A stretch of 64,000 nt of DNA from Aquabacterium sp. (GCF_049274795.1 NZ_JBASTH010000100.1:31719-95718); one strand, 5' to 3'. Shown: positions 48,185 through 62,985, numbered from the stretch's first letter. The notes: generated by a model not told the origin, from the letters alone. Made by a program: numbers and translations.

Positions 48185-48191
48185 GGATGCT

Positions 48192-48265: not shown

Positions 48266-48280
48266 GAAAAAAAGGGAAGC

Positions 48281-50915: not shown

Positions 50916-51859
50916 CCCTCGCTGATCAGAATATTGGCAATCAACTCTGATTTTTTGCTGTTCGGATCTACAGCAGATGCAGCACAACATGGCACCGCGC
51001 CCGCATATGCACCCGGGAATTGGGGAAAGCTCCATCCTTCCACCCCACGCAGATGAAAGTAACGAACACCAACGAGCTTCATTTTTTGCAAAGCAAAGCC
51101 GGAGCACTCTGGATAAACCTCATTCAACACAATCAATCCTGGCCAAAACAAATCTATATAGCTCTCAATCGCACCCGCCCTTGAAATATTTACCAATATA
51201 GTTTCCGATCCATGCAATTGCTGCACTGGCAACGTACCCCGGCAAACTGCATCCTCGTGCTCAGGATCCACTTCAATAACGTGAAATTGAGTTGTCTGCG
51301 TCAATTGGCTCACCACCCGTTTACCTACGAAGCCAGCGGCACCAAGGACCACCACATTACACTTACGGGCCAAAGCAGCACGCTGCCTCAATAATTCAAT
51401 AGCTCCAACAATCCATTGAACTGTCCTCATCACCTCAATTGGCGCCCGCTGAATACCGGCCTTAGACATGAGACTTGGTAGCACACCGGAATAAGCCACG
51501 AAATCAATGCCGAGTATGGCTGCTATGCCTTGCATTTCTTCATACAATTGCCGAAGGTTATTATCAGCAGAGGGATGAGACATTTCATCCTCACAAGCAC
51601 CCATATAAAAAACGAGCCCCCCGCCGTCTCCGTGGCGAAAAATTCCCGCGAACCTCGGATGCCACTTCACTTTGGCGGCATACCAGGGAAACGTCACCGA
51701 CTCCAAATAACGTCTATTCGCTGGATAAAACAATGCCACGGTGTTGATTTTTCCGCGAAACGCGATCTTGATGATTGCCCCAAAAATATAAAGGGTAAAT
51801 TTCGCAGTCAATATTTCTGCCAAAACAATACGGATTCCCGCAATCAGGTTATTTCGCAT
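50912..51859 (-). CDS. NAD(P)-binding oxidoreductase resembling the acyl-ACP reductase / shikimate-dehydrogenase-like family
   Basis: It has a Rossmann motif (VVVLGAAGFVGKRV). The overall layout aligns by eye with cyanobacterial acyl-ACP reductase (...LGIDFVAYSG..., NVVVLGAAG.VG..V, LIVLNEVYPE, VPCCAAS with a conserved Cys). It also has an N-terminal hydrophobic helix. The function is inferred only. Confidence 0.45.
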   Translation of the reverse strand: MRNNLIAGIRIVLAEILTAKFTLYIFGAIIKIAFRGKINTVALFYPANRRYLESVTFPWYAAKVKWHPRFAGIFRHGDGGGLVFYMGACEDEMSHPSADNNLRQLYEEMQGIAAILGIDFVAYSGVLPSLMSKAGIQRAPIEVMRTVQWIVGAIELLRQRAALARKCNVVVLGAAGFVGKRVVSQLTQTTQFHVIEVDPEHEDAVCRGTLPVQQLHGSETILVNISRAGAIESYIDLFWPGLIVLNEVYPECSGFALQKMKLVGVRYFHLRGVEGWSFPQFPGAYAGAVPCCAASAVDPNSKKSELIANILISEG

Positions 51860-52140: not shown

Positions 52141-52737
52141 GTGGGGATGGAGATGGCCTTTCTATTCCGAAAGAGTAGGACAACAAGTAGTCTTCGCGCA
52201 CCGAGCAATGAACCAGATGAGGCATCGCAGGGGAAAAGACCTCCGGCAACTGCTTCCCCCGCCTCAATCGACCTGAGGTGTCTAGAAAACTCCCAGTCCG
52301 TTGCCTGGCAGCTATCGTCGTCGTCAAATGAATCACGCGACGATATTTTTAAGGGTCTCCATATCCTTTTAGCAGAGGATGATGAAGTCGTGGGCGAATT
52401 GTTTTGCGACAACCTGATTTCAAGAGGCGCGTTGATTCAGCACGTACTGGACGGCAATTCAGCTTGTTCTGCCGCGCTGGAGCAAAACCGACCATCCGTC
52501 ATATTGATGGACTGCCAAATGCCCGTCATGGATGGGTTTGCAGCAGCCCAACATATACGAACCGAAGAGGCAAGTAGGGGACTCAGGGCTGTACCCATTA
52601 TTGCTTTAACCGCACTTGCCCGCGAGTTTGACCAGCACCATTCTCAAGCGGCGGGAATCAATGCTTACTTGGTCAAGCCTGTCACAATGTTTGAATTGGG
52701 CTATGCAATAGAGCAAGTCTTGAAGGCAAAGGATTAA
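52141..52737 (+). CDS. stand-alone response-regulator receiver protein with a ~70-aa Ser-rich N-terminal extension
   Basis: The REC domain shows ILLAEDDEVVGELF, VILMDCQMPVMDG, IIALTA and YLVKPV. No ATG lies close to the REC domain, so the start is uncertain. Confidence 0.65.
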   Translation: MGMEMAFLFRKSRTTSSLRAPSNEPDEASQGKRPPATASPASIDLRCLENSQSVAWQLSSSSNESRDDIFKGLHILLAEDDEVVGELFCDNLISRGALIQHVLDGNSACSAALEQNRPSVILMDCQMPVMDGFAAAQHIRTEEASRGLRAVPIIALTALAREFDQHHSQAAGINAYLVKPVTMFELGYAIEQVLKAKD

Positions 52738-54011
52738 GGTTCCAACAGAGGCATCCACACAGTAAATATTGTTCCTTTGCCTGGAGTCGATTCAACAGTA
52801 ATTTTGCCGCCGAGCATTTCCACCAGCAACCGAACCACCGACAGACCCAAACCGCTCCCTTCATTCAATGCCACGTTCGGGTCATTGGTAATGCGCACAT
52901 AGGGTTCCCAGATGCGTTCGATTTGATCTGCATCTATACCAATACCAGAATCCTCGACGACAAAATACGTCCCATGCTTCCCATCCTTTGGATGCCGACT
53001 GACCTTGACCAGCACCACACCAGAATTGGTATATTTAACCGCATTACCAATTAAGTTGCTTAGTATTTGGTGCATCCGATTCATATCCCCGCGAATATCC
53101 AAGCAATCTACTGAAACTTCACTCTTGAGTTCATTGCCTTTTTCGGTGGCAGCGGCCTGATGCTCTTCAAAGAGGACGTTGATGAGCCTGGGCACGTTGA
53201 ACGGTTCCATGACTGCAGGACTCAAGCCAGAGGCATGCTTAGTGATGACGATAAGGTCACGCAACCTGGCATTGAGTTTTGCTGTTGAACTGCGGATTCG
53301 GTTCAAGAATTTTTGATTCAAGGAAGAAAGCTGCGCGCCATTGGCACCCTTTGCCAAGCCTTCAGCGGCTACCGATATCACTTGGAGAGGCGTTCTCAAT
53401 TCATGGGTGATCATTGCCAGCATGGTCATGCGAGAACCCAGGGCTTCGTATTGCACGGCGATTCTCCTGCGACGCTGCCTGTCGATCCAGATGAGCATGA
53501 TCAAATACATCGGCTGGATCAGCGCCAATCTCGCCACAGCAATAACCTCTTCAGAATCCTCCCCTTGCCAGTGACTTTGAGCAAGACTAGCGGCACAAAG
53601 ACCTATCGTCACGATGGCGACCAAGACAGGAAAAACTCGTCCCCGTCGAATCAACAACGCAAACGATGCAACATATAGAAGCGGCAAAGCAGCGGCGATC
53701 AGGCCAACCCATTTCAGATCAACGCGTTCCTGAACAAATAAGGCGAGCGCCAGTGTTACCTCAAAATACAGAAATAAAACGCTCAGAACAACCACCCGCA
53801 TCGCGTTCAATCGACCAGGCATCCACCACGTCGCCCCCGCTGATACGACAAAAAACACGCAAAGCCAAGGAAGACCCACGCGTGCAATCAACGATGGAGC
53901 ACGCGTGTACAGATCCAAGCTCCAATAGGCCAAGATCAACACAGAGGCGCAAATTTGAATCAGTGCTGCAAGAAACGCATCTTGCTTCTGTGGCGACAGA
54001 TCCCTCATCAT
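52734..54011 (-). CDS. membrane sensor histidine kinase
   Basis: The H-box is MITHELRTPLQV, the N-box is NLIGNAVKYT, G1 is DSGIGI and G2 is GSGLGLSVV. Several N-terminal TM helices are present. The ATG at 54011 overlaps the upstream TAA (TAATG); the ORF-track start at 54038 is a GTG. Confidence 0.8.
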   Translation of the reverse strand: MMRDLSPQKQDAFLAALIQICASVLILAYWSLDLYTRAPSLIARVGLPWLCVFFVVSAGATWWMPGRLNAMRVVVLSVLFLYFEVTLALALFVQERVDLKWVGLIAAALPLLYVASFALLIRRGRVFPVLVAIVTIGLCAASLAQSHWQGEDSEEVIAVARLALIQPMYLIMLIWIDRQRRRRIAVQYEALGSRMTMLAMITHELRTPLQVISVAAEGLAKGANGAQLSSLNQKFLNRIRSSTAKLNARLRDLIVITKHASGLSPAVMEPFNVPRLINVLFEEHQAAATEKGNELKSEVSVDCLDIRGDMNRMHQILSNLIGNAVKYTNSGVVLVKVSRHPKDGKHGTYFVVEDSGIGIDADQIERIWEPYVRITNDPNVALNEGSGLGLSVVRLLVEMLGGKITVESTPGKGTIFTVWMPLLEP

Positions 54012-54889
54012 TATCTGGCGCGCTGCTTGTTCATCCACCGTTGAATGGCAGAAGCCAAAATAGAAATGCGCACCGGCTTTTCGTGAAGCTCCGAATCATG
54101 CAAGTGCATTAATCGGGCAATGTCAGCATCAAGGTTTTCTTTCGCTTGTCCGGTAAGCAGTAAGATGAGCGCATGAGGCTTATTTGCTCTGATTCTTGCG
54201 ATCAATTGAGCAGCGGTTTGATGAGGACCGAGCTTGTAGTCCACGATGAAGGCATCATGCCTATCGATACTTTCCGACAATTGGTTCTCTGACGAAAATG
54301 GATCAGCGAGATAGCCCAGGTCTTGCAGCGCATCCGCAATCATCCCGGCCACATCCTCGTCATCGTCCAACACTGCCACCTTCAATTTCTCGGGGTTGGT
54401 GACGAGTTCGACCTCTTTTACCTCGAACAAGTCATCTTGCTCGGCATCCCCTTCCTTGAAAAGAATCAGTTGCCAGGGGTTTCCGCGGCGAGCGGCTAGT
54501 TGGCCGTTGCCAGGCGCGTCTATGCGCTTGCCGATGTCAGCCCTGGCCTGAATCCGTTCGCCTGCGATTTCCAACTCACATGTGTGCCACTGGATGTTGA
54601 AGATGGCCGACGGCGGGTCATCGAAATGTGAGGCAATCAAGGCAACTTCTTCTACAGCGAAAGAAGTTTCTCCCTTGAGCTTGCGGCGGTTCTGCAACGC
54701 AGAGATGCCGGTGATAGATCCGATTTTGGCCGCGTGATTGCGTTCGGCAACCCCTTTGGCTGTCAGGTACATCGCCACCCGATCGACAACACTCATTCGG
54801 TATTGCTGAAGCCGATCATTAAGTTGAATGCGCTCGTTCAGCGCAAAAGCACCTTGCTCGCCATCTGGGCCAGTGTCTTGATTGTTCAT
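54011..54889 (-). CDS. response regulator with an N-terminal HTH (BetR-like) domain and a C-terminal receiver
   Basis: The C-terminal REC shows KVAVLDDDEDVAGMI, AFIVDYKLG, LLLTGQ and HEKPV. The N-terminal ~100 aa have an HTH-like segment (AKIGSITGISALQNRRKL). It is translationally coupled to the kinase downstream. Confidence 0.6.
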   Translation of the reverse strand: MNNQDTGPDGEQGAFALNERIQLNDRLQQYRMSVVDRVAMYLTAKGVAERNHAAKIGSITGISALQNRRKLKGETSFAVEEVALIASHFDDPPSAIFNIQWHTCELEIAGERIQARADIGKRIDAPGNGQLAARRGNPWQLILFKEGDAEQDDLFEVKEVELVTNPEKLKVAVLDDDEDVAGMIADALQDLGYLADPFSSENQLSESIDRHDAFIVDYKLGPHQTAAQLIARIRANKPHALILLLTGQAKENLDADIARLMHLHDSELHEKPVRISILASAIQRWMNKQRAR

Positions 54890-55462: not shown

Positions 55463-56224
55463 ATGATCGACCACTGGCGTCAGTTTTCCGACGATTGGGA
55501 CTCCCCCGCGCCGTCACCCACTGATGGACTGCATCAGGCCTCGTCACAAAGAGACCGCAATCAGTATCAGACCATGATGGCCGTTCTGACAGCCCAGCAA
55601 AAAGTCGGCGACGCAGTGAAGGCCCAAGGGGATGGCTATTCATGTCATCAATTCATGGCAGACATCAGAACCAGTTCCTGGCATGACGATGCCACACAGG
55701 TGAAGGTGATCGACAACGGTGCGGGTTTCAATTACGAATACTTGGCACACAGCCGCGTGTGCTTCAAGGGTAGCTTGAACACATTGAGGTCACTGCCGTC
55801 CCCCAGCGTCATCTCGACTGCCCGATACGAGCTGGACTTGGAAATCGTCTTCAAGAAGCTCACGCAGTTGAAGGACATGTTCCCAAATTGGACGCATCTT
55901 TGGGTCATCCTGAATGCGTTCGTCACAGCGCACTACCTTCATCACGCCTGTCCTATCGACGACACAGAGCTTCGGCGTGTGGAGCCCTTGATCAAGAACT
56001 ACAAGGTTCAGTTCGATCAGGTTGCCCTTCATACCTCTTTCTATCCATTCATCTCGAAGCTCGCCTACACGGTCCACAAGGTGGCCGTGGGCCAGTATGC
56101 CTCCCACACCCTTTCGGTGACGGCTGACGACTTGCTATTGATGAACATTGCCTTGGGCATGTACCAGAGCGTCAAGTTCACGTTGCCGAATCGCACCAAC
56201 GAAGTAGATGTCCTGATCGGATGA
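55463..56224 (+). CDS. hypothetical protein (no recognisable domain)
   Basis: The ATG at 55463 is preceded by AAGGAG at a 6-nt spacing. The 253-aa product begins MIDHWRQFSDDWDSPAPSP. The longer ORF-track start at 55190 lacks an RBS. Confidence 0.55.
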   Translation: MIDHWRQFSDDWDSPAPSPTDGLHQASSQRDRNQYQTMMAVLTAQQKVGDAVKAQGDGYSCHQFMADIRTSSWHDDATQVKVIDNGAGFNYEYLAHSRVCFKGSLNTLRSLPSPSVISTARYELDLEIVFKKLTQLKDMFPNWTHLWVILNAFVTAHYLHHACPIDDTELRRVEPLIKNYKVQFDQVALHTSFYPFISKLAYTVHKVAVGQYASHTLSVTADDLLLMNIALGMYQSVKFTLPNRTNEVDVLIG

Positions 56225-56227
56225 GTC

Positions 56228-56551
56228 ATGGTGTCCTTCGACCAATTCCTCGGTGTCCTGCGAGACCGCCTACTTGAAACCCAAGGCGCAGAGATGATGA
56301 TCGGCCCCTACATGCTCACTGCATGCTTGGTCATGAGCGACACCGACTGGCAACACTTTGCCCAGGCAGTGTTTGACACGCTGCACTTCGACATCGATCT
56401 ACATGCCTTGTCAGGGTCAAGCACGATTCTGGATCTGTACTTTGCGTCGGTAGATCGATTTCAACTGACCTCCATTCTCGCCATGGACAACCCATGCATC
56501 AAGGTCGAGCACGCGAACGACCAATCCAGTCACCCTGCGTACTTCCATTGA
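56228..56551 (+). CDS. hypothetical small protein (107 aa)
   Basis: It starts 3 nt after the upstream stop and follows the same codon usage as its neighbours. No motif was recognised. Confidence 0.45.
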   Translation: MVSFDQFLGVLRDRLLETQGAEMMIGPYMLTACLVMSDTDWQHFAQAVFDTLHFDIDLHALSGSSTILDLYFASVDRFQLTSILAMDNPCIKVEHANDQSSHPAYFH

Positions 56552-56619
56552 TCCGACATGGACTCACTCACTTCATCTCTGCATCAATCGTCGGGGGCCA
56601 CGGCACCGATGCGACAGCA

Positions 56620-57006
56620 ATGAGGCAGACACTGCATTTCATTGCGATGGATCTCGGAATGGGCGCCATCCTCACTTCCGGATTGGCTGCTTTCTGGCTG
56701 CTGTGCATGGATGCAGCGAACGACGATGTTGCCGCGCTGGCTCAACGCGCATCGAGGGATCAACGAGCCAGTGAATATGTTGAATCCGTCACCAGGGAAG
56801 CCGGCTGGCCAAGTCACGGTCAACTGATCGTGGCCCAGGTCACCGTGTCGGAGATTTTGAACCATGCGCCGGGAGTCGCCCAAGGATTACCTGCCAAGTA
56901 CAGCGCGTCATGGCGAGCCTACATCCCATTGGTTTTGGCCTACCTCTTCTGGACTCTCTTGACTGCTTTGTTCATTCGGCTTCTCAGACGCAATAGAAAC
57001 GAATGA
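56620..57006 (+). CDS. hypothetical membrane protein
   Basis: It has hydrophobic segments (GMGAILTSGLAAFWLLCM and YIPLVLAYLFWTLLTALFIRLL). The start is uncertain within ORF 56494..57006. Confidence 0.4.
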   Translation: MRQTLHFIAMDLGMGAILTSGLAAFWLLCMDAANDDVAALAQRASRDQRASEYVESVTREAGWPSHGQLIVAQVTVSEILNHAPGVAQGLPAKYSASWRAYIPLVLAYLFWTLLTALFIRLLRRNRNE

Positions 57007-57054
57007 TCGGCGCCTCAGGTGCACAGCCCTAACCATTCACACAGGAAATTCAGA

Positions 57055-57858
57055 GTGAACGAGACACTTCAGCGAAGGCAGATTCTCAAAGCGGCTTCGG
57101 CACAGCTTGGCTTGCTCGCAATAGCCGGCTGCGCACCCTCAATGAACTTGAGGCCGGACAACCAGCGAGAGGTCAGCGGCGTCATACGCGACGCCAACGA
57201 ACTGGCGCTGGTTAAGCCGCTGGAACTCATGCCCCTTCCCTTCAGCGAATCCGCGCTGGCACCCGTCATTTCGGCGAACACGATGAAGTTGCATCATGGC
57301 AAGCACCACAAGGCTTACGTCGATGCACTAAGGCGCATCGAGGCCGCTCATCCGGGATCGATCAGCAGATACAGCCTACGCGAATTGGTCGTTCTGATGT
57401 GGACGGCTGACGCAGACGCTCGCGTGGCTTTCCAGAATGCAGCCCAGCACTACAACCATTGCATTCAATGGCTCAGTCTTTCTCCCAATGGTGGTGGGCA
57501 GCCGCCTCAAACCGTTGAGGAAGCATTGACACAGAGCTTTGGTGGTGTGCCGCAGTTCCAGCAAGCATGGCTGGACAAGGCCATGAGCGTGTTCGGAAGT
57601 GGTTGGGTTTGGCTGGTTCATAGCGTCCGTTCCGGCCAGCTTGAAATCCTGCCCACCTCCAATGCGGACACCCCTATAACCAAGCCCGGATTGACGGTCC
57701 TTGGCAACCTCGACGTTTGGGAGCATTCGCATCAACCCGACTATCCAGGTGACAGGAAATCCTATGTCAAATCCGTGATGGACAAGGTATTTGACTGGCA
57801 CTTCGTGGAGTCGCAATTGATTCGTGCACGACAGCTTGAAAAGCTGAGCAATGCCTAG
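57055..57858 (+). CDS. Fe/Mn-family superoxide dismutase with a Tat signal and lipobox (predicted exported lipoprotein)
   Basis: The twin-arginine signal is ETLQRRQILKAASAQLGLLAIAGC, with lipobox LAIAGC. The SOD motifs are LHHGKHHKAYV, FQNAAQHYNH, FGSGWVWLV and DVWEHSH, so all four metal-ligand positions (H, H, D, H) are retained. The GTG at 57055 is preceded by AGGAA; the in-frame alternative is the GTG at 57019. Confidence 0.75.
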   Translation: MNETLQRRQILKAASAQLGLLAIAGCAPSMNLRPDNQREVSGVIRDANELALVKPLELMPLPFSESALAPVISANTMKLHHGKHHKAYVDALRRIEAAHPGSISRYSLRELVVLMWTADADARVAFQNAAQHYNHCIQWLSLSPNGGGQPPQTVEEALTQSFGGVPQFQQAWLDKAMSVFGSGWVWLVHSVRSGQLEILPTSNADTPITKPGLTVLGNLDVWEHSHQPDYPGDRKSYVKSVMDKVFDWHFVESQLIRARQLEKLSNA

Positions 57859-57879
57859 TTTCACTACGAGCAGGCGTGT

Positions 57880-58515
57880 ATGCAAGTAATGAGGTTGTCG
57901 CTGATCGAGGGACCGGCTGTGAGCATGACTGAACCAGCAGTGATTGTCTCGGCACAAGCGGACAGGTTCGGCAGTTTGCCGACCGGGGTCACCCTCGCTC
58001 AATCGATGGTGGAAGCCATAGGCTTGCTCACACAGAACTACCACCGGGTGATTTTCCTCGATGCCGTCTTGCCCGGCAATCAGAGCGCTTACCGGGCCGT
58101 CAATCAAATATTGAAGCACTACCGTGAGCGCGTCGGGCGCATCTTCATCATGAGGGATGAGGTACGCCCGGCCGACGTTCAATTCGCGCGGACATGCGGC
58201 GCTGATGGCGTCATCACCAAAGATGGCAAATCGGTTCTAAGGGTGCTTCAGTCATACCAAGTTTTGACAGAAGCAAGCAATACAAGCATGGAACCGGCCT
58301 GGCTAGTTCCTTTGACGAAGGTGGCAAGTCAGTTTCTCGCCTCCGAAGCGGAACGCGCCGTCCGCAAGAGCTTTCTTCTGGCCCGTCAGCAGAACGAGGG
58401 CACAACACCACAACTGGCAGGCACGATTCGCGCGCTCGGATCCTACTTCGATGAAGAAGAAGATTTCCTCGCCTTCACGCGTGAAGCCGTCAACGCACTC
58501 AAGAACATTCGATGA
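57880..58515 (+). CDS. hypothetical protein with a divergent receiver-like N-domain
   Basis: An alternating beta/alpha pattern is present, with VIFLDAVLPG (a candidate Asp) and GADGVITKD (a Lys). The usual N-terminal acidic pair is missing. The C-terminal ~90 aa are unknown. Confidence 0.4.
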   Translation: MQVMRLSLIEGPAVSMTEPAVIVSAQADRFGSLPTGVTLAQSMVEAIGLLTQNYHRVIFLDAVLPGNQSAYRAVNQILKHYRERVGRIFIMRDEVRPADVQFARTCGADGVITKDGKSVLRVLQSYQVLTEASNTSMEPAWLVPLTKVASQFLASEAERAVRKSFLLARQQNEGTTPQLAGTIRALGSYFDEEEDFLAFTREAVNALKNIR

Positions 58516-59594
58516 TCCGCGCCTTCAACCGCCTTCCCACGCTAGGTCAATTTCTTGCGCTTCTGTCATCCATCTTTGTGGTGGGTGCAATCCTTTTCAC
58601 GCAGCTGCAAGAAACCGTGGTCCAAAGCCAAGCCTTGCATCGAGCGGAGGACATGGCCAACTATGTTGAGGCAGTAGGTGATCTGGCCAGTGCTTACAAC
58701 GGCTTCTGGGCATACAGCGATCCCGCGAAGCCGATCAAAGCTGGTGACTTTCTTGATGCCAAGGTGCTCGATCATGGAGTGGTGGCACCAGATACCGCAT
58801 TCCCGGCAGGGAGCATCAGGCCAGCAGTCTATGCAACAGGCGACCGCACTGGAAGCACAAGCCCAGACCCGAAACCGAAGGGCTCGCCATTCGACATCAT
58901 CAATGCCGAAGACCTGAAGCAGGTCACCGCATACATCCGGAAGAATCCGGCGCTGGTCCAGCGGGAATTAAGTGACATCGTGGAAGCCAGCCCCATGCGG
59001 GTCAAGTTCAAGCTCACCAGCCACCGCAATTTCAACCCCAACAACGCTCCCAACGAATTTGAAGGCACGGCCCTCGACGCCTTTCGACGGGACGGGTCCG
59101 TGGCCACGGAGTATTGGCAGTTCAAGAAAGGCACGCTGCTTTATGCCCGAAGGCTCACGGCAAAGAAGGCTTGCATGAGCTGTCATGGCACACCAGAGGG
59201 CGCCCCCGAGGTCATCAAGGCCAAGTACCTGAACAGCAATGGCTTCGGATACGAAGAAGGTGGTGTCGCAGGCATCATCAGCGTGACGGTCCCCATGGAC
59301 AACAACAGCGCAGTGGATCTGTTTCGGACGATGAGCCCAATGGGCTGGATGGCCTTCACCATGCTGATTGGCTTGACTGTCATCGCCGTGGTGTGGTTCA
59401 CCAACATATCTTCATCCGCGAAAGCGATGTCGGTCTTCATGCGGCAGATTTTGCACAGCAAACCAGGCGAACGCCTGGAGCGCTTTGCGCTCGAGGCGGA
59501 CGAAGCATCTTCCCGCAATGAACTGCATCGCGTTTCGCTGGGAATCAAAGCCTTGCACCGCGCGTTGCGGATCGCCCAGAAACCTAAGGACTAG
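58512..59594 (+). CDS. c-type-haem DUF3365 (Tll0287-like) domain protein with a C-terminal TM helix
   Basis: It has an N-terminal TM helix (LALLSSIFVVGAILF). The CxxCH motif sits in the characteristic context YARRLTAKKACMSCHGTPEGAPEVIKAKY...GYEEGGVAGIISVTVPM. A second TM helix follows (WMAFTMLIGLTVIAVVWF). There is an ATGA overlap with the upstream gene. Confidence 0.65.
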   Translation: MIRAFNRLPTLGQFLALLSSIFVVGAILFTQLQETVVQSQALHRAEDMANYVEAVGDLASAYNGFWAYSDPAKPIKAGDFLDAKVLDHGVVAPDTAFPAGSIRPAVYATGDRTGSTSPDPKPKGSPFDIINAEDLKQVTAYIRKNPALVQRELSDIVEASPMRVKFKLTSHRNFNPNNAPNEFEGTALDAFRRDGSVATEYWQFKKGTLLYARRLTAKKACMSCHGTPEGAPEVIKAKYLNSNGFGYEEGGVAGIISVTVPMDNNSAVDLFRTMSPMGWMAFTMLIGLTVIAVVWFTNISSSAKAMSVFMRQILHSKPGERLERFALEADEASSRNELHRVSLGIKALHRALRIAQKPKD

Positions 59595-59605
59595 CGCGAA
59601 TCGAT

Positions 59606-60637
59606 ATGAACCACACACCGTACCTGCATGATTCATTCATGAGCGCGCTCAGCCCTTCTCATTCTCATCGCCTCCATGCCTATATGGATTTGGAGTGGCC
59701 TCTCGTCTTCAATCGCCTGGGATGCCTGTTTCGAGCACGCAAGGACATCGAGGGAGAGAAAACGTATATCCCGATCAGCGGTGCAACGCTGTCCCACGTT
59801 CATACACTGCTGAGGAAGTCCGATGAGCGCCCGCTGGAAGTGCGAACTGCGATCCCATGGGATCTAGGCATCAACCGTGATCGTCCCGCCAAAGCCCTGT
59901 CGCAGCTTTGGCTGTATGGCACGCCATTTCACGAACTTCTGAGTCCGCAGCAGCGCATCGACATGTCGTGGTTGGAGATTGCACGGGACGCGTCCTGGCT
60001 CATCAAGCTCAAGGAGCGCATGGCTTCGCTCCATACCAGCTACCCGAATCGATATCGCCGCTCGATCCCCTCAGCGGTCCAAGAATATCTGCTTGTCCAA
60101 TCCAAGGAAGATATCGTCCATGTGTTGATGCTCAATCGATATATGCGCATGGCCGGTCTGCCGACCTTCAAGCACTTCCCGGCCTTTGAACGCATCTCAG
60201 CTTTGCTCCCTGAAATGCATCCTTGCATTGCCATGGCTTGCAATCTTGTTCTGACATGGCTCATCGATGCCAGCATCATGTATGCGACGGAAGGCTCGGA
60301 CATTGATGTTCTTACACGGGAAATGTTCAAGCTGCATCATGCGGAAAAGGTGCGACACCTCGATTTCTCCCGCCGCCTGATCGAAGACTACTTCTCCGAG
60401 AACAATAAAGACGACAGGCAACGCGTTCGGCAGATCCTGGGGTGGATCATTCCTGAGATGTTTTCCTCATACCGTTTCAGCCCCGAGATCGCCGCGCACA
60501 CCTCATTCGAGTTTCCTGTCAACACGCGCAAAGAGGAAATGGTCAAAGCCATCCACCAATCGGGGCACAACGAGCTGCTTGACCGGGAGCGTTTCAAAGA
60601 ACTGGACAGTTGGCTCTGGACCATGGATTTGATCTGA
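59606..60637 (+). CDS. ferritin-like di-iron-carboxylate protein (AurF / di-iron oxygenase-like)
   Basis: Two E...ExxH pairs are spaced as in di-iron oxygenases: LEIARDAS ... SKEDIVHV, and YATEGS ... HHAEKVRH. The assignment comes from motif pattern only. Confidence 0.45.
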   Translation: MNHTPYLHDSFMSALSPSHSHRLHAYMDLEWPLVFNRLGCLFRARKDIEGEKTYIPISGATLSHVHTLLRKSDERPLEVRTAIPWDLGINRDRPAKALSQLWLYGTPFHELLSPQQRIDMSWLEIARDASWLIKLKERMASLHTSYPNRYRRSIPSAVQEYLLVQSKEDIVHVLMLNRYMRMAGLPTFKHFPAFERISALLPEMHPCIAMACNLVLTWLIDASIMYATEGSDIDVLTREMFKLHHAEKVRHLDFSRRLIEDYFSENNKDDRQRVRQILGWIIPEMFSSYRFSPEIAAHTSFEFPVNTRKEEMVKAIHQSGHNELLDRERFKELDSWLWTMDLI

Positions 60638-60640
60638 AAA

Positions 60641-60964
60641 ATGAATCAGCCAAATCATTCCACCTCAGGCGCTCCATCCATGACGCCCCAGGAGGCCCTG
60701 CGCAAAGCGGTAAGCATTGTCGGCTCACAGTCCAAACTGGCGAAAGACATCGGGAAGGGCTTGACGCAGGCCCACATCTCCCATTGGCTCACGAAATCCA
60801 AGGTTGTACCGGCGCAGCATTGCCCCGACATCGAACAGATCGTGAATCGGGCAGTCATGTGCGAAGAACTCAATCCAACGGTCAATTGGGGATTCATTCG
60901 CAACAGCCCACCCTATCAACCCCTCTCAATCACGCAGTTTCAGAATCAAACACAGCGGTGGTAA
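60641..60964 (+). CDS. Cro/YdaS-like helix-turn-helix DNA-binding protein
   Basis: The segment ALRKAVSIVGSQSKLAKDIGKGLTQAHISHWLTKSKVVPAQHCPDIEQI matches the YdaS/Cro-type HTH pattern that is common in prophages and islands. Confidence 0.6.
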   Translation: MNQPNHSTSGAPSMTPQEALRKAVSIVGSQSKLAKDIGKGLTQAHISHWLTKSKVVPAQHCPDIEQIVNRAVMCEELNPTVNWGFIRNSPPYQPLSITQFQNQTQRW

Positions 60965-61171
60965 GTGAACGCCTCACTCTGCATCAACCAGTTTTCTTGT
61001 AGAGATAACGCAACTGCTGATCGGCACCACAAACATAGAATTCGCGCCTCGCTTCGGTGAGGCACAAGCGGCCACCTCACGACGCAGCAAACAATAATTT
61101 TGTAGGTTGAGATGTTGATACAAAACCATGGAGGCCCATCGGGCGCAAAGCCTGTTGATGGTGTTCAAGGC

Positions 61172-62896
61172 ATGAACGCGTGCCTTATCGCGGCACTGGC
61201 TGCTTTGGCTTGCTTCGTGCCATCACATGGCTTCGCAGCCACTCCCCTCGATACCGGCGTACAGGAGCAGCAGCGGCAGCAACAACGCGATGAGTTGCTT
61301 CGCAAGCAGCAACAGCCCAGCCCTGACGTGCGGTTGCAAACGCCCGAACAGCCCAAGGCTTCTGATCGCATTCCGGCCAGTGAGACACCGTGCTTTCCGA
61401 TCCAGAGGATCGAACTGCAAGGCGACGAGGGGGGCCGCTTCCATTGGGCATTGGAGGCAGCAGGCCACGCCTCTGCGCACGATGCCGACCCCGTGATGGG
61501 CCGATGCCTGGGCGCCCAAGGCATCAACATTGTCATTGGCCGTGTTCAGAACGCCATCATCCAGCGCGGCTATGTCACCACACGCGTCATGGCGCCGCCG
61601 CAGAACCTGGCCGAAGGCACGCTGAAGCTCTCGGTGCTGCCGGGCCGCATCCGTGCCATTCGCCTCACGGCCGACTCGACCACGCAACGTGCCCGCCTGT
61701 GGAATGCCCTGCCCGTCCGTGCAGGCGATGTACTCAACCTGCGCGACGTCGAGCAGGGTCTAGAAAACTTCGAGCGCCTGCCTACCGCGCAAGCCAACAT
61801 CCAGATCGAGCCTGCCGATGGCCCCGATGCCAAGCCGGGCGAAAGCGATCTGGTCATCCGCTGGACGCAAGAGCGGTTCTTCCGCGTCACGGCTTCTGTG
61901 GACGACAGTGGCAGCAAAGCGACTGGCAAGTACCAGGGCAATTTCACCTTGTCTTACGACAACTGGTGGACGCTCAATGACCTGTTCTATGCCAGCGTGG
62001 GCCACGACCTGGGCGGCGGCGATCCCGGCAGCCGTGGCACCGACAGCCAGACCCTCCACTACTCCCTACCCTTCGGCTACTGGCTTCTGAGCTGGAACAC
62101 CAGCGACTCGTCCTACCATCAGGAAGTCGCGGGCACCAACCAGACGTACACCTACAGCGGCAAGACGAGCAACAGCGACATCCAACTTTCTCGCCTGTTC
62201 TACCGTGATGCCGTGAACAAGGCCACGCTTTCCATCGGAGGCTGGTTGCGCTCATCGAGCAACTACGTCGATGACACGGAAGTTTTGGTCCAGCGCCGCC
62301 AGATGGCGGGCTGGCAATTGGGCCTGTCGCATCGGGCCGCATGGCCCACGCTGACCCTCGATGCCAAAATGGCCTACCGGCACGGCACGGGTGCCATGGG
62401 AGCCATGCCCGCACCCGAGGAAGCAACCAGCGAAGGTACATCTCGCCCGAGGCTGGTGACAGCCAACCTGCAACTGGCCCGTCCCTTCAAGCTCAGAGAC
62501 ACAGCCTGGCGGTTCACGACCGCCCTGCGCGGGCAGTGGAACCAGACGCCGCTGGTGCCGCAAGACCGCTTTGCCATCGGTGGCCGCTACACCGTTCGCG
62601 GCTTCGATGGCGAATTGACCCTGGCCGCAGACCGAGGCTGGCTTATCCGCAATGACCTGGCCCTTGCCTTGGGCCGCAGCGCGAACGAGATGTACGTGGC
62701 CCTCGACCACGGACAGGTTGCGGGGCAGTCCGCCCAATACCTGTTGGGCAACAAGCTCACGGGTGCGGCCATCGGCCTGCGCGGCACCGTCCAGCGCGTC
62801 GGCTACGACCTGTTCTGGGGCTGGCCGCTCTACATGCCGCAGGGCTTCCAGACCGCGTCGTCCAGCGGCGGCTTCAGTCTGACTTGGTTTTATTGA
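61172..62896 (+). CDS. two-partner-secretion outer-membrane transporter (ShlB/FhaC/HecB family, TpsB/CdiB-like)
   Basis: It has a signal peptide (MNACLIAALAALACFVPSHGFA), a POTRA region (FPIQRIELQGDE...) and the conserved C-terminal barrel motifs FAIGGRYTVRGFDGE and GFSLTWFY. Confidence 0.85.
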   Translation: MNACLIAALAALACFVPSHGFAATPLDTGVQEQQRQQQRDELLRKQQQPSPDVRLQTPEQPKASDRIPASETPCFPIQRIELQGDEGGRFHWALEAAGHASAHDADPVMGRCLGAQGINIVIGRVQNAIIQRGYVTTRVMAPPQNLAEGTLKLSVLPGRIRAIRLTADSTTQRARLWNALPVRAGDVLNLRDVEQGLENFERLPTAQANIQIEPADGPDAKPGESDLVIRWTQERFFRVTASVDDSGSKATGKYQGNFTLSYDNWWTLNDLFYASVGHDLGGGDPGSRGTDSQTLHYSLPFGYWLLSWNTSDSSYHQEVAGTNQTYTYSGKTSNSDIQLSRLFYRDAVNKATLSIGGWLRSSSNYVDDTEVLVQRRQMAGWQLGLSHRAAWPTLTLDAKMAYRHGTGAMGAMPAPEEATSEGTSRPRLVTANLQLARPFKLRDTAWRFTTALRGQWNQTPLVPQDRFAIGGRYTVRGFDGELTLAADRGWLIRNDLALALGRSANEMYVALDHGQVAGQSAQYLLGNKLTGAAIGLRGTVQRVGYDLFWGWPLYMPQGFQTASSSGGFSLTWFY

Positions 62897-62910
62897 TAGG
62901 TAGTGGATCG

Positions 62911-62934: not shown

Positions 62935-62985
62935 GTGTGCTCGCGGGCACGTCATCAAGCAACACGTTCTCAAAGAGGTAGGGCA

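What the first reader, a model, noticed from the sequence alone, without database searches (positions are those of the whole stretch)
55463..60964. Tightly packed eight-gene island operon mixing three unknown proteins with an exported Fe-SOD, a receiver-like protein, a c-haem DUF3365 sensor domain, a di-iron protein and a Cro-like regulator
Seen in sequence: eight same-strand ORFs have spacers between -4 and about 70 nt (3-nt gaps at 56224/56228 and 60637/60641; an ATGA overlap at 58512). Recognisable parts are a Tat-lipobox superoxide dismutase, a CxxCH DUF3365 (Tll0287-like) domain flanked by TM helices, a protein with two E...ExxH di-iron motifs, and a degenerate receiver-like protein. The first three products (253 aa, 107 aa and a small membrane protein) match nothing I recognise. 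Inference: all identifiable members handle oxygen, reactive oxygen or redox cofactors. The operon may therefore be a self-contained periplasmic oxidant sensing and detoxification module, or a module that makes an oxidised small molecule, acquired horizontally. This gene combination is not a pathway I can name.
Basis: partly seen in the sequence, partly recalled or inferred. Interest (0 to 1): 0.66.

Follow-up and report, generated by a model that had tools for sequence, protein, structure and literature searches.

The report
Mosaic operon built on lipid-enzyme relics
The eight genes are real and tightly packed, but they are a patchwork: three relics of a fatty-acid-tailoring pathway that always travel with a set of signalling genes, split in this lineage by an inserted periplasmic haem-sensor and superoxide-dismutase cassette.

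Summary
The eight ORFs, their spacing and the domain calls are confirmed. The gene order is conserved only in close relatives. In more distant relatives the 253-aa, 107-aa and AurF-like genes are directly adjacent. They always lie opposite a BetR-type response regulator, two polytopic histidine kinases, a receiver, an orphan Rossmann protein and an exported START protein. A conserved terminator-type leader RNA, not in Rfam, precedes them.

Two of the "unknowns" resolve. The 253-aa protein is a MaoC-type hotdog relative without the hydratase motif. The 107-aa protein is probably an ACP-fold relative without a conserved phosphopantetheine serine. The AurF-like protein carries Lys where the second ExxH glutamate should be. 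This trio descends from the MaoC–ACP–AurF core of a FabI–FabF–MaoC–ACP–AurF–CrtI-like–FabG–ferredoxin cluster.

The small membrane protein, Tat-lipoprotein Fe-SOD, pseudo-receiver and sCache_heme receptor are a lineage-specific insertion, with a YdaS-type HTH gene added after the AurF-like gene.

I read the locus as a horizontally acquired lipid-linked signalling module that gained a periplasmic NO/redox input with its own SOD. It is not one self-contained oxidant-detoxification pathway. Function remains inferred. The family is very rare and undescribed.

The parts
48192..48265 (-). tRNA-Cys(GCA) at the left edge of the low-GC island
   Evidence: ARAGORN and Rfam tRNA at 56.7 bits. No integrase and no flanking direct repeats were found.
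48597..49310 (+). Exported START-domain protein (237 aa). Conserved member of the locus.
   Evidence: Pfam START, E 1.4e-10. N-terminal signal peptide visible in the sequence. Orthologues in L009, L016 and L020 at 57-70% identity.
49473..50915 (-). HK1, a polytopic histidine kinase. The start is approximate and lies directly after the Rossmann gene.
   Evidence: HisKA + HATPase_c. At least four TM segments. Conserved in all full-length relatives. An orthologue (49-51% identical to the HK1 proteins of L020, L018 and L009) lies next to a full FAS-type cluster in L031.
50912..51859 (-). Orphan 315-aa NAD(P)-type Rossmann protein with a hydrophobic N-terminal segment and invariant Cys residues (VPCCAASA). 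It lies just upstream of HK1.
   Evidence: Only the GxxGxxG region matches known families. Alignment A4. Conserved at 46-49% identity in relatives.
52141..52737 (+). Stand-alone receiver protein
   Evidence: Response_reg, E 1.3e-16. Conserved position.
52734..54038 (-). HK2, a polytopic histidine kinase with about six TM segments
   Evidence: HisKA + HATPase_c. TM scan. Conserved.
54011..54889 (-). BetR-HTH + receiver response regulator, divergent from the eight-gene run
   Evidence: Pfam BetR, E 2.4e-14, plus Response_reg. Always divergent from the 253-aa gene. The BetR/EepR family regulates competition traits in Serratia (PMC7618870).
55228..55413 (+). Conserved structured leader RNA: a small hairpin, then a ~115-nt extended hairpin followed by a T-run (terminator/attenuator-like). 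It ends about 50 nt before the 253-aa gene.
   Evidence: Shared k-mers. Alignments A8 and A10. RNAalifold. 91% of cells paired against 40-52% when slid; 11 pairs with double changes against 4.0±1.4 in shuffles, 0/500. The covariance model finds exactly one copy per window-type locus and none in FAS-type loci. No Rfam match at E<=1.
55463..56224 (+). U253: a MaoC-dehydratase-derived hotdog protein that lacks the hydratase motif. Member of the core trio.
   Evidence: A profile search of 1.84 billion representatives finds only 16 proteins. The distant ones (P0042-P0046, E 1.3e-13 to 2.8e-4) carry FSGDWNPIHFD; the three scanned (P0042, P0044, P0046) pass Pfam MaoC_dehydratas. BLASTP to the L030 MaoC protein gives E 4.6e-14. 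The motif is lost in every window-type member.
56228..56551 (+). U107: a probable ACP-fold protein without a conserved phosphopantetheine serine, and with an invariant C-terminal His. Member of the core trio.
   Evidence: It occupies the ACP slot between the MaoC and AurF homologues. hhalign against 11 FAS-type ACPs gives P 0.0011, gapless over columns 1-61. About 40 of the top 50 Foldseek PDB hits to its low-confidence model are carrier proteins. Family alignments A3 and A5.
56620..57006 (+). Small 2-TM protein with a ~75-aa acidic loop, function unknown. First gene of the inserted cassette.
   Evidence: TM scan. Orthologues only in L012 and L021. No Pfam, NCBIfam, PADLOC or PHROG hit.
57055..57858 (+). 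Tat-signal, lipobox Fe-type superoxide dismutase (the ORF opens at 57019). Inserted cassette.
   Evidence: Sod_Fe_N and Sod_Fe_C pass their thresholds. NCBIfam Fe-SOD, E 7e-43, is below the equivalog cut-off. Conserved QRRxILK...L-x-x-GC and the HHxKHH / QHYNH / DVWEH ligand motifs.
57880..58515 (+). Receiver-like protein (Asp and Lys kept, acidic pair and Thr lost) with a helical C-terminal half. Translationally coupled to the haem receptor. Inserted cassette.
   Evidence: Response_reg 20.7 bits, below the 30.2 cut-off. Alignment. ATGA overlap. No plasmid homologue.
58512..59594 (+). Membrane-anchored periplasmic sCache_heme (Tll0287/DUF3365) receptor: TM, haem-c Cache domain, TM, then a 61-aa tail with no output domain. 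Inserted cassette.
   Evidence: PF11845, E 2.7e-26. CMSCH provides the only Cys residues. Two TM segments. No HAMP hit in the tail. Family biology from bioRxiv 10.64898/2026.02.01.703092 and 10.64898/2026.05.25.727664.
59606..60637 (+). AurF-family ferritin-like protein with an altered metal site (K248 in place of the second ExxH Glu). Member of the core trio and the most conserved protein of the locus.
   Evidence: PF11583, 54.8 bits. 13 homologues among 5.8 billion proteins. 39-41% identical, E 1e-104, to the AurF proteins of FAS-type clusters. Ligand table.
60641..60964 (+). YdaS/Cro-like HTH protein, present only in the clade that has the cassette
   Evidence: PF15943, 71 bits. phrog_35 transcriptional repressor, E 7e-18. 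Distribution.
61112..62896 (+). ShlB/FhaC-type two-partner-secretion transporter, followed by a large TPS exoprotein. Variable downstream cargo, not part of the conserved unit.
   Evidence: ShlB, POTRA_2 and POTRA_3. It follows the AurF-like gene in the window, L012 and L023 only.

Best explanation
The eight-gene run is a mosaic operon inside a ~13-kb horizontally acquired locus.

Layer 1, shown by synteny and homology. This is a conserved trio:
- U253, a hotdog protein.
- U107, an ACP-fold protein.
- An AurF-type ferritin-like protein.
The trio descends from the MaoC-ACP-AurF heart of a FabI-FabF-MaoC-ACP-AurF-CrtI-like-FabG-ferredoxin fatty-acid-tailoring cluster. In this clade the trio has lost the FabI, FabF and FabG genes, the CrtI-like FAD enzymes and the ferredoxin. 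It has also lost its own catalytic hallmarks: the hydratase D-x-N-P-x-H motif is gone, the phosphopantetheine-serine position is not conserved, and the second ExxH Glu is Lys. It has become fixed next to a BetR-type response regulator, two polytopic kinases, a receiver, a membrane-associated Rossmann protein and an exported START protein. A conserved terminator-type leader RNA precedes it.

Layer 2, shown. One sub-lineage inserted a four-gene cassette between the ACP-like and AurF-like genes:
- a 2-TM protein;
- a Tat-lipoprotein Fe-SOD;
- a pseudo-receiver;
- a periplasmic haem-c Cache receptor with no output domain.

Layer 3, shown. The same sub-lineage has a YdaS/Cro-like HTH gene after the AurF-like gene.

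Mechanism, inferred.
- The trio no longer performs dehydration or chemistry on a phosphopantetheine-tethered substrate, and whether it keeps a canonical di-iron site is open. It acts as a cytoplasmic acyl-ligand-binding, or altered-chemistry, device within a lipid-based signalling circuit.
- Its transcription is set by the divergent BetR regulator and by conditional read-through of the leader terminator.
- The membrane-embedded kinases and the START protein deal with the same hydrophobic signal.
- The inserted cassette adds a periplasmic NO/redox input. The haem-c Cache receptor signals through its short cytoplasmic tail to the translationally coupled receiver-like protein.
- The periplasmic SOD removes the superoxide that such haem sensors generate on autoxidation. 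That superoxide would otherwise consume NO.
For: Mosaic structure.
- The presence/absence matrix over 25 loci and the gene tables show that the cassette and the HTH gene occur only where the AurF-like protein is at least 72% identical.
- Everywhere else U253, U107 and AurF are contiguous.
- In FAS-type loci the ACP gene abuts the AurF gene. The cassette is therefore an insertion, not a deletion elsewhere.

Ancestry of the trio.
- AurF-like protein: 39-41% identical, E 1e-104, to the FAS-type AurF proteins.
- U253: its profile hits MaoC-motif proteins at E 1e-13 in an exhaustive search.
- U107: same gene slot as the ACP, hhalign P 0.0011, and carrier proteins dominate its Foldseek hits.
- KS-MaoC-ACP-AurF-FAD (with KR and ferredoxin where the contig reaches that far) is seen in L026, L030 and eight of the 15 metagenome loci; five further short contigs show parts of the same order.

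Degeneracy.
- Hydratase motif lost in all 11 window-type U253 representatives.
- K248 invariant, against E248 invariant in 13 FAS-type sequences.
- Further ligand changes (H172Q, D221H, V247) occur in lineages that still keep intact ORFs.
- The phosphopantetheine serine aligns to a variable position. The neighbouring S37 is Thr or Asn in two lineages.

Signalling context.
- Invariant neighbourhood of BetR-REC, HK2, RR, Rossmann protein, HK1 and START.
- An HK1 orthologue lies next to a full FAS-type cluster in L031.

Leader RNA.

Cassette logic.
- Signalling-type sCache_heme domains bind NO. All tested members produce superoxide with O2. A related TM-Cache_heme-HAMP receptor with no output domain signals to a co-encoded cytoplasmic partner.
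- The window protein has no distal Cys.
- The SOD has a conserved Tat signal and lipobox.
- ATGA coupling of the receiver-like gene and the receptor gene.
Against: - No expression, metal, haem or ligand data exist.
- The AurF-like protein is the best-conserved protein of the locus and keeps six of seven ligand positions in most members. That fits a working enzyme.
- Ferritin-like proteins with Glu-to-Lys ligand changes can stay active through other chemistry, as in class Ie R2 (PMC11846895).
- S37 of U107 is conserved in 10 of 12 sequences and could be modified after a one-residue register shift.
- The link between U107 and ACPs is statistically modest, and its structural model has low confidence (pLDDT 53).
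- The U253 model failed (pLDDT 45).
- The receptor tail is not a recognisable HAMP domain, and no Ser/Thr kinase partner is present. The analogy to CHH receptors is therefore loose.
- A functional coupling between the cassette and the trio is inferred from position alone.
Confidence: 0.42

Rival explanations
1. The trio is still a working mini-pathway. U107 is loaded with an acyl chain taken from primary fatty-acid synthesis, U253 holds or presents that chain, and the AurF-like protein oxidises it with O2. The product is a diffusible oxidised-lipid autoinducer. The Rossmann protein may release it, the START protein carries it, and HK1/HK2 sense it. This would resemble a synthase-plus-sensor quorum-sensing locus of the Cqs/Lqs type.
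For: - Descent from a biosynthetic cluster.
- The AurF-like protein is highly conserved (44-92% identity) and keeps 6 of 7 ligand positions in most members.
- S37 is present in 10 of 12 U107 sequences.
- Polytopic kinases, an exported START protein and an HK1 orthologue beside the full FAS-type cluster all fit the production and sensing of a hydrophobic signal.
- LuxR solos follow the trio in L009, L024 and L025.
- Ferritin-like di-metal enzymes are known to act on acyl-ACP or acyl-CoA substrates: CylC (PMC8406957) and BioE (PMC12704756).
- Class Ie R2 shows that Glu-to-Lys variants can remain functional.
Against: - The catalytic His and Asn of the hydratase motif are lost in every U253.
- The canonical phosphopantetheine-serine position is variable, and S37 is Thr or Asn in two lineages.
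- E248K is invariant, and additional ligand losses (H172Q, D221H) are tolerated.
- The dedicated ferredoxin, KS, KR and ER genes are all absent.
- The Aquabacterium locus keeps U253 and AurF, but the U107 slot holds a diverged 73-aa ORF.
Confidence: 0.3
2. The eight genes together form a self-contained periplasmic oxidant-sensing and detoxification operon, and every member serves defence against reactive oxygen species.
For: - An exported Fe-SOD and a periplasmic haem-c sensor lie in the same transcription direction with minimal spacing.
- sCache_heme proteins react with O2 and NO.
- The AurF family uses O2.
Against: - Only four of the eight genes (the cassette) have any periplasmic or ROS logic.
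- The cassette is absent from most relatives of the trio.
- The trio descends from cytoplasmic fatty-acid-tailoring enzymes.
- The conserved partners are two-component regulators and lipid-type proteins, not oxidative-stress genes.
- There is no catalase, peroxidase, thioredoxin or OxyR/SoxR-type gene in the island.
Confidence: 0.1
3. The trio and the cassette have no shared function. The cassette simply landed in a permissive intergenic site of an operon. The whole region mainly serves as the regulatory front end of the downstream variable cargo, here a two-partner-secretion (possibly contact-dependent inhibition) toxin system.
For: - TPS genes follow the AurF-like gene in three lineages, with or without the cassette: the window, L012 and L023.
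- No + strand terminator was detected between the HTH gene and ShlB.
- BetR-family regulators control competition weapons in Serratia (PMC7618870).
- Downstream content is otherwise variable.
Against: - The cassette sits exactly between two genes that are 0-25 nt apart or overlap everywhere else.
- It has been kept, with tight or overlapping junctions, across lineages that have diverged to 72-78% identity in the AurF-like protein.
- That pattern suggests selection for co-expression.
- The trio is conserved regardless of cargo.
Confidence: 0.13

Closest known systems
Uncharacterised FAS-II-like clusters, FabI-FabF-MaoC-ACP-AurF-CrtI-like-FabG-ferredoxin (metagenome loci L026, L030-L045 found here)
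   Same: - The same AurF subfamily (39-41% identity over the full length).
- A homologous hotdog protein.
- An ACP in the same slot and the same gene order.
- In L031, an orthologue of HK1 next door.
   Different: - Those clusters keep the KS, KR, ER, two CrtI-like flavoenzymes, a ferredoxin and often a membrane desaturase.
- Their hotdog protein has the hydratase motif, their ACP has DSL, and their AurF protein has all seven ligands.
- The window locus has none of these.
- I found no paper that describes this cluster type.
AurF/CmlI arylamine N-oxygenases (Pfam PF11583)
   Same: - A Pfam family-level match above threshold.
- A ferritin-like four-helix core with the AurF-type extra His four residues before the second motif (H244...H251).
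   Different: - Even a family profile gives no detectable similarity to any solved structure.
- The second ExxH Glu is Lys.
- The genomic context is ACP and fatty-acid genes, not aminoarene pathways.
- N-oxygenation is not indicated.
Ferritin-like di-metal enzymes that act on acyl-ACP or acyl-CoA substrates: soluble acyl-ACP desaturases (own knowledge), the CylC halogenase (PMC8406957) and BioE (PMC12704756)
   Same: A di-metal carboxylate protein encoded beside a dedicated carrier protein and, in the ancestral cluster, a ferredoxin. This is the best model for what the ancestor of the trio did.
   Different: - They belong to different ferritin-like subfamilies.
- Those enzymes keep complete ligand sets and use holo-ACP or acyl-CoA substrates.
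- The window trio shows loss of both features.
Cache_heme-HAMP (CHH) NO receptor with its partner Ser/Thr kinase in Pseudomonas azotoformans (bioRxiv 10.64898/2026.05.25.727664; domain family in 10.64898/2026.02.01.703092)
   Same: - Architecture: TM, periplasmic haem-c Cache domain, TM, then a short cytoplasmic segment with no enzymatic output.
- A cytoplasmic signalling protein is encoded next to it.
- There is no distal Cys, as in the signalling-type members.
   Different: - The tail (61 aa) is not recognised as HAMP.
- The adjacent partner is a receiver-like protein, not a PknB-type kinase.
- A Tat-lipoprotein Fe-SOD and a 2-TM protein are co-encoded. The parts of those papers I read do not mention such neighbours.
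BetR/EepR-EepS (Reg1-Reg2-BetR) two-component switch of Serratia (PMC7618870)
   Same: - A BetR-HTH plus receiver response regulator paired with a membrane kinase.
- It is associated with competition and secondary-metabolite loci.
   Different: - The window locus has two polytopic kinases without periplasmic domains, an extra receiver, a Rossmann protein and a START protein.
- It has no Reg1-type periplasmic protein.
- Targets are unknown.
Class Ie ribonucleotide reductase R2 (QSK/VPK variants; PMC11846895)
   Same: A ferritin-like protein in which conserved metal-binding Glu residues, including one changed to Lys, are substituted clade-wide while the protein remains under selection.
   Different: - Three ligands are replaced there but only one or two here.
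- The subfamily and function are unrelated.
- I cite it only as a precedent that such substitutions change, rather than necessarily abolish, function.

Membership tests
Fe/Mn superoxide dismutase | Both the Sod_Fe_N and Sod_Fe_C domains score above Pfam thresholds | tested here: met
   59.8 bits and 82.9 bits against cut-offs of 27 and 20.9.
Fe/Mn superoxide dismutase | The four metal ligands (His, His, Asp, His) sit in their conserved motifs | tested here: met
   HHGKHH, AAQHYNH and DVWEH are present in the window protein and its orthologues. The metal identity (Fe) is inferred only from the best NCBIfam hit.
Fe/Mn superoxide dismutase | Periplasmic lipoprotein export through Tat (a claimed special feature, not a defining feature of the family) | tested here: inconclusive
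   A conserved QRRxILK twin-arginine motif, a hydrophobic region and an L-x-x-G-C lipobox occur in three orthologues. No dedicated predictor or experiment was available.
sCache_heme / Tll0287-like (PF11845) | Domain match plus a conserved CXXCH haem-c motif | tested here: met
   93.2 bits against a cut-off of 24.1. CMSCH at residues 222-226.
sCache_heme / Tll0287-like (PF11845) | Covalently bound haem c; NO or redox responsiveness | not testable with these tools
   This needs haem staining, UV-vis spectra and NO off-rate measurements.
CHH receptors (Cache_heme-HAMP with a partner Ser/Thr kinase) | A cytoplasmic HAMP domain after the second TM helix | tested here: not met
   The 61-aa tail has no Pfam hit at E<=1.
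CHH receptors (Cache_heme-HAMP with a partner Ser/Thr kinase) | An adjacent PknB-like kinase with C-terminal helical repeats | tested here: not met
   The neighbour is a receiver-like protein. There is no kinase domain anywhere in the island.
AurF-type di-iron oxygenase (PF11583) | Family profile match above the gathering score | tested here: met
   54.8 bits against a cut-off of 29.6, covering profile positions 8-265 of 282.
AurF-type di-iron oxygenase (PF11583) | A complete seven-residue ligand set: E, ExxH, E, HxxxExxH (AurF ligand numbering from my own knowledge of the AurF structure) | tested here: not met
   The window has E124, D169xxH172, D221 and H244xxxK248xxH251. K248 is invariant in 11 clade members, whereas 13 FAS-type relatives have E248.
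AurF-type di-iron oxygenase (PF11583) | Arylamine N-oxygenation | not testable with these tools
   No aminoarene pathway genes lie nearby. The context argues for an acyl-chain ligand.
MaoC-like (R)-hydratase/dehydratase hotdog | Homology to proteins that pass PF01575 | tested here: met
   The U253 profile hits P0042-P0046 at E 1.3e-13 to 2.8e-4 in 1.84 billion proteins; of these, P0042, P0044 and P0046 were scanned and score 34.8-41.9 bits on PF01575 against a cut-off of 27. U253 itself has no Pfam hit.
MaoC-like (R)-hydratase/dehydratase hotdog | The hydratase-2 catalytic motif, [YF]-x-x-G-D-x-N-P-x-H | tested here: not met
   The window has FSDDWDSPAPS. Asn, Pro and His are absent in all 11 window-type representatives and present in all five MaoC-type relatives.
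Acyl carrier protein (PP-binding) | Four-helix carrier fold and family-level similarity | tested here: inconclusive
   No Pfam hit. hhalign E 0.054 with 3 ACPs and P 0.0011 with 11 ACPs. Carrier proteins make up about 40 of the top 50 Foldseek hits, but each has E of about 0.8 or higher and the model pLDDT is 53. The gene slot is identical to that of the ACP.
Acyl carrier protein (PP-binding) | A conserved phosphopantetheine-attachment serine (DSL) | tested here: not met
   The serine aligns with variable position 38 (D/Q/H/R/E/P/T). The adjacent S37 is Thr or Asn in two lineages. Modification itself was not testable.
Response-regulator receiver (PF00072), for the 211-aa protein | Profile match above threshold and a full acidic pocket (DD, D, T/S, K) | tested here: not met
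   20.7 bits against a cut-off of 30.2. The phospho-acceptor Asp (FLD) and the Lys (ITKD) are kept. The acidic pair and the Thr are not.
YdaS/Cro-like HTH | Profile match above threshold | tested here: met
   PF15943, 71.2 bits against a cut-off of 30. phrog_35 repressor, E 7e-18.
Intrinsic terminator / transcription attenuator (leader RNA) | A stable, conserved hairpin immediately followed by a U-tract on the coding strand, between the promoter region and the start codon | tested here: met
   (MFE -49.9 kcal/mol, z -2.3). Termination, and any ligand or protein control of it, were not testable.

The most novel reading that the evidence does not exclude
Three enzymes of a fatty-acid-tailoring pathway have been jointly converted into non-catalytic, or radically re-tooled, proteins. 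They are a hotdog dehydratase, its acyl carrier protein and an AurF-type di-iron oxygenase. They now act as a lipid-signal receptor or adaptor complex. The complex is hard-wired to a BetR phosphorelay, gated by a previously undescribed attenuator RNA and, in this lineage, coupled to a periplasmic haem-c NO sensor that carries its own Tat-exported SOD. This would be a new class of signalling module built from pseudoenzymes.
Probability: 0.3. Interest if true: 0.78.

Novelty: new variant of a known kind. Interest (0 to 1): 0.58.

Why it matters
- If the trio is a relic complex reused for signalling, it would be a clear bacterial case of a whole enzyme set (dehydratase, carrier, oxygenase) becoming pseudoenzymes together.
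- It would also point to the unknown lipid made by the widespread FabF-MaoC-ACP-AurF-CrtI-like clusters as the cognate signal.
- If the trio is still active, the locus is a compact, unexplored synthase-plus-sensor system for an oxidised lipid autoinducer in Burkholderiales.
- Either way, the locus offers three separately testable items:
  - a ferritin-like protein with a clade-wide Glu-to-Lys ligand change;
  - a new conserved leader RNA;
  - a natural pairing of a periplasmic sCache_heme receptor with a dedicated Tat-exported Fe-SOD and a pseudo-receiver. This pairing would extend the recently described output-less haem-Cache receptors to a second kind of partner.

Tried and rejected
- AlphaFold2 models. 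U253 reached pLDDT 44.6 and U107 reached 53.4 because the alignments hold only 8-10 sequences. The Foldseek result for U253 (MHC class II chains, TM about 0.1) is meaningless and I discarded it.
- PDB sequence and profile searches. Searches with the AurF-like family, the L030 AurF protein and the Rossmann family found nothing beyond a generic GxxGxxG match.
- Rossmann protein as an acyl-ACP reductase. I had the idea that the 315-aa Rossmann protein is a cyanobacterial-type acyl-ACP reductase (similar 'CFAEA' / 'CCAASA' motif). hhalign gave probability 4% and E 0.01 over 42 columns, so the idea is not supported.
- HAMP in the receptor tail and a helical-repeat domain in the receiver-like protein: no Pfam hit.
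- Defence-system and phage-gene explanations: no PADLOC hit. The only PHROG hit was the HTH protein.
- Plasmid origin: tblastn of the receiver-like and AurF-like proteins against 72,556 plasmids found nothing.
- Mobile-element signatures: no att-like or IS-like repeats around the island or the cassette. Only chance 16-21-nt matches turned up.
- Sigma-70 promoter and terminator scans found nothing above chance.
- The leader RNA as a known family: no Rfam match at E<=1. Its GGTTCGATCC stretch resembles a tRNA T-loop but has no matching stem, so I dropped that reading.
- U107 as a RiPP precursor or scaffold peptide. I considered this because of the invariant C-terminal His and the variable tail. 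I set it aside once the ACP slot and fold evidence appeared. The conserved C-terminus remains unexplained.

Full report
**Observation**

The window is 66.7% GC up to about 47 kb. GC then falls to 46-57% from 48.6 to 61.0 kb. This low-GC block starts next to a tRNA-Cys gene at 48192-48265.

All eight + strand ORFs of the finding exist. The junctions are as described:
- a 3-nt gap at 56224/56228;
- an ATGA overlap at 58512;
- 11 nt before the AurF-like gene;
- 3 nt before the HTH gene, or 42 nt with the start at 60680 that gene callers prefer.

A strong AAGGAG precedes the ATG at 55463. Homologues begin at the same Met, so the longer 55190 ORF is not the gene. The membrane-protein gene most likely starts at 56620 (128 aa). 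The SOD gene most likely starts at the GTG at 57055.

Pfam confirms the SOD, the Tll0287-like domain, AurF (54.8 bits against 29.6), YdaS and a sub-threshold receiver. Scans for promoters and terminators inside the run give nothing above chance. There are no att-like or IS-like repeats, no PADLOC hits, and only the HTH protein hits a PHROG.

**Synteny shows a mosaic**

The AurF-like protein has only 13 relatives among 5.8 billion clustered proteins. I read the contigs that carry nine of them, plus three genome loci: a Curvibacter MAG, an Aquabacterium species and a Pseudomonadota MAG. A tblastn matrix over all loci gives three results.

1. Wherever the contig is long enough, the 253-aa gene (U253), the 107-aa gene (U107) and the AurF-like gene lie divergently from the same six genes. 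These are a BetR-HTH/receiver regulator and polytopic kinase HK2, a stand-alone receiver, an orphan 315-aa Rossmann protein followed by polytopic kinase HK1, and an exported START protein (Pfam). In the window these occupy 48.6-54.9 kb. The conserved unit is therefore much larger than the finding.

2. The membrane protein, SOD, receiver-like protein, Tll0287-like protein and YdaS HTH occur only in the clade whose AurF-like protein is at least 72% identical to the window's (the window itself, L012-L014, L021 and L022). In all other relatives (44-64% identity) U253, U107 and AurF are contiguous or overlapping.

3. What follows the AurF-like gene varies. It is two-partner secretion genes in the window, L012 and L023. 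It is a LuxR solo followed by a P450/MMPL cluster in L009, L024 and L025. It is something else in L015.

In the other hosts the locus has about the same GC as its flanks (54-57% against 54-61%). In the window it is 10-20 points below the host. This fits recent horizontal acquisition by the window's host.

**The two soluble 'unknowns'**

U253 and U107 have no Pfam or NCBIfam hits and very few relatives. AlphaFold models from these shallow alignments were poor.

An exhaustive HMMER search with the U253 profile against 1.84 billion representatives found only 16 proteins. The five most distant (E 1.3e-13 to 2.8e-4) carry the hydratase-2 motif FSGDWNPIHFD. The three I scanned pass Pfam MaoC_dehydratas.

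Their contigs show a recurrent cluster. A metagenome scan with a broad AurF alignment added fifteen more loci. The cluster order is: FabI-like reductase, FabF-like ketosynthase, MaoC hotdog, ACP (PP-binding, DSL), AurF, a CrtI/CrtD-family flavoprotein, FabG-like ketoreductase and a 7Fe ferredoxin. A second CrtI-like enzyme, a membrane desaturase, DUF1571 and DUF2867 often follow (NCBIfam names).

- The AurF proteins there are 39-41% identical to the window protein over the full length (E 1e-104).
- U253 aligns end to end with the L030 hotdog protein (E 4.6e-14).
- U107 sits exactly in the ACP slot.
- A profile-profile comparison of the U107 family with eleven of these ACPs gives P 0.0011, with a gapless alignment over the first 61 columns. 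With only three ACPs the result was E 0.054.
- Although no single Foldseek hit to the low-confidence U107 model is significant, about 40 of the top 50 are acyl or peptidyl carrier proteins.

I therefore treat U253 as a MaoC-hotdog relative (well supported) and U107 as an ACP-fold relative (probable). The 2-TM protein remains unknown.

**Coordinated loss of catalytic hallmarks**

- Every window-type U253 lacks the Asn-Pro-x-His of the hydratase motif and the downstream His-Gly. All MaoC-type relatives keep them.
- In the U107 family the ACP phosphopantetheine serine aligns with a variable position (D/Q/H/R/E/P/T). The neighbouring S37 is Thr or Asn in two lineages. The family has instead an invariant STIxDLY helix and an invariant C-terminal His.
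- For the AurF-like protein, thirteen FAS-type sequences have the full AurF-style set: E124, E169xxH172, E221 and H244xxxE248xxH251.
- All eleven window-type sequences have Lys at position 248 and Asp (twice His) at 221. Three have Gln at 172, and the Aquabacterium type has Val at 247.
- The window-type loci also lack the KS, KR, ER, flavoprotein and ferredoxin genes.
- These proteins are nevertheless under selection. ORFs are intact across 44-92% identity, and the AurF-like protein is the best-conserved protein of the locus.
- Precedent cuts both ways. Class Ie R2 proteins replaced metal-binding glutamates, one of them by Lys, became metal-free and still work (PMC11846895).

**Link to signalling**

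HK1 and HK2 are membrane-embedded sensors without periplasmic domains. The START protein is exported, and the Rossmann protein has a hydrophobic N-terminus. These features suit a hydrophobic ligand.

In L031 a complete FAS-type cluster is followed by a kinase that is 49-51% identical to the HK1 proteins of L020, L018 and L009 across the TM and catalytic regions. That is as close as HK1 orthologues are to each other. The HK1 family and the AurF clusters are thus associated beyond the window-type loci.

BetR-family regulators (EepR in Serratia) control antibiotic production, T6SS and motility (PMC7618870).

**A conserved leader RNA**

The 573-nt region between betR and U253 holds nucleotide blocks that are better conserved than the flanking proteins. 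Alignment and RNAalifold show a small hairpin followed by a three-segment extended hairpin of about 115 nt. Its sequence runs GATCCTCTCCCC...CCCATACGGT...ACCGCATGGGT-GGGGAGAGGAT and is followed by a T-run. It ends about 50 nt (window) to about 95 nt before the U253 start.

- On six loci, 91% of cells are paired against 40-52% for slid partners.
- Eleven pairs show changes on both sides, against 4.0±1.4 in shuffles (0/500).
- The window copy folds at -49.9 kcal/mol (z = -2.3).
- A covariance model finds exactly one copy in each window-type locus and none in FAS-type loci.
- Rfam has no match.

I read this as a terminator-type attenuator, or possibly an sRNA, that gates the operon. Six sequences, two of them near-identical, is a small sample.

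**The inserted cassette**

The Tll0287/DUF3365 family was recently redefined as sCache_heme. Members fused to signalling architectures bind NO tightly. Stand-alone ones look redox-related. All tested proteins produce superoxide on reaction with O2 (bioRxiv 10.64898/2026.02.01.703092).

A TM-Cache_heme-TM-HAMP receptor with no output domain signals to a co-encoded Ser/Thr kinase (bioRxiv 10.64898/2026.05.25.727664).

- The window protein has the same topology. It has only the two CXXCH cysteines, so it has no distal Cys ligand.
- Its 61-aa tail is not a recognisable HAMP domain.
- Its gene overlaps (ATGA) that of a receiver-like protein. That protein keeps the phospho-acceptor Asp and the Lys but not the acidic pair or the Thr.
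- The SOD has conserved Tat and lipobox motifs and intact ligand motifs.

A periplasmic SOD beside an autoxidising periplasmic haem sensor is mechanistically sensible. It removes sensor-made superoxide, which would also destroy NO. That last chemical point is my own knowledge, and the functional link is an inference. No part of the cassette was found in plasmids.

**Conclusion**

My best-supported account (confidence about 0.4 for the mechanism, much higher for the anatomy) is a horizontally acquired, lipid-linked signalling locus:
- its core trio is a re-tooled relic of an acyl-ACP tailoring pathway;
- it is controlled by a BetR phosphorelay and a leader attenuator;
- one lineage inserted a periplasmic NO/redox-sensing cassette with its own SOD and added a Cro-like HTH gene.

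The main rival (about 0.3) is that the trio still makes an oxidised lipid autoinducer.

The family is extremely rare. It has 13 to 16 clusters in billions of proteins and was found in three of 185,579 species genomes by a pattern-limited scan. I found no paper that describes it or the parent FAS-type cluster.

Noticed in passing
window 55228-55413 (+), between betR and the 253-aa gene: A conserved structured RNA not in Rfam. It is a small hairpin plus a ~115-nt extended hairpin with a U-tract. There is one copy in every window-type locus and none elsewhere in the 392 kb searched. It is probably an attenuator or an sRNA.
   Followed up: yes
L026 350-7400; L030 7756-19409; L031-L045: A recurrent and apparently undescribed cluster, seen in L026, L030 and most of the 15 metagenome loci: FabI-FabF-MaoC-ACP-AurF-CrtI-like-FabG-ferredoxin, sometimes followed by a second CrtI-like gene, a membrane desaturase, DUF1571 and DUF2867. 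It probably makes a modified unsaturated fatty acid and is the evolutionary source of the window trio.
   Followed up: partly
L031 10501-11718 (-): A histidine kinase that is 49-51% identical to the HK1 orthologues of window-type loci sits right after a complete FAS-type cluster. The contig ends inside it, so I could not see whether the rest of the regulator set follows.
   Followed up: partly
L034 7605-9786: Two tandem AurF paralogues (46% and 51% identical to the L030 AurF protein) lie in one FAS-type cluster on a 525-kb contig.
   Followed up: no
window 50912-51859 (-): An orphan 315-aa Rossmann protein with invariant NEVYPECS and VPCCAASA motifs lies immediately upstream of, and about to overlap, the HK1 gene. 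It has no family or PDB match beyond the nucleotide-binding loop. A resemblance to cyanobacterial acyl-ACP reductase was not supported.
   Followed up: partly
window 56228-56551; alignment A5: The ACP-like protein family has an invariant C-terminal His, preceded by an aromatic or Leu residue, at the end of an otherwise hypervariable and probably disordered 30-residue tail. FAS-type ACPs do not have this. It is unexplained.
   Followed up: no
L020 9633-10019 (Aquabacterium sp. CECT 9606) and L019: In this most divergent locus the ACP-like slot holds a 73-aa ORF that shares only the N-terminal helix. The AurF-like protein has Gln172 and Val247 as well as Lys248. The leader hairpin keeps its shape with a shifted pairing register.
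   Followed up: partly
window 61112-64000; L001 11567-20743; L012 11461-20999: A two-partner-secretion system (a ShlB transporter and a 2292-2419-aa haemagglutinin-repeat exoprotein) follows the operon. The L012 version ends in a TNT toxin domain with an Imm63 immunity gene, which suggests contact-dependent inhibition. No + strand terminator separates it from the HTH gene.
   Followed up: no
L009/L010 11043-20993; L024 2177-12131; L025 1881-7353: In the compact-operon lineages the AurF-like gene is followed by a LuxR solo (Autoind_bind + GerE). On the opposite strand are DUF2867, a P450, an MMPL transporter with a LolA-like domain, a flavodoxin-like reductase, two SDRs and an OYE. DUF2867 also occurs in the FAS-type clusters.
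   Followed up: no
window 48129-48506 (-) and 55190-55462 (+): Both are long ORFs that are almost certainly not genes. One overlaps the tRNA-Cys gene. The other is the upstream extension of the 253-aa ORF, which runs through the leader RNA.
   Followed up: partly
window 43630-48132: Just left of the island lie a large ABC exporter (819 aa), a 301-aa protein and a 450-aa protein whose sequence looks like a sugar aminotransferase; I judged these by eye and ran no family search on them. GC already declines from 65% to 58% across them.
   Followed up: no
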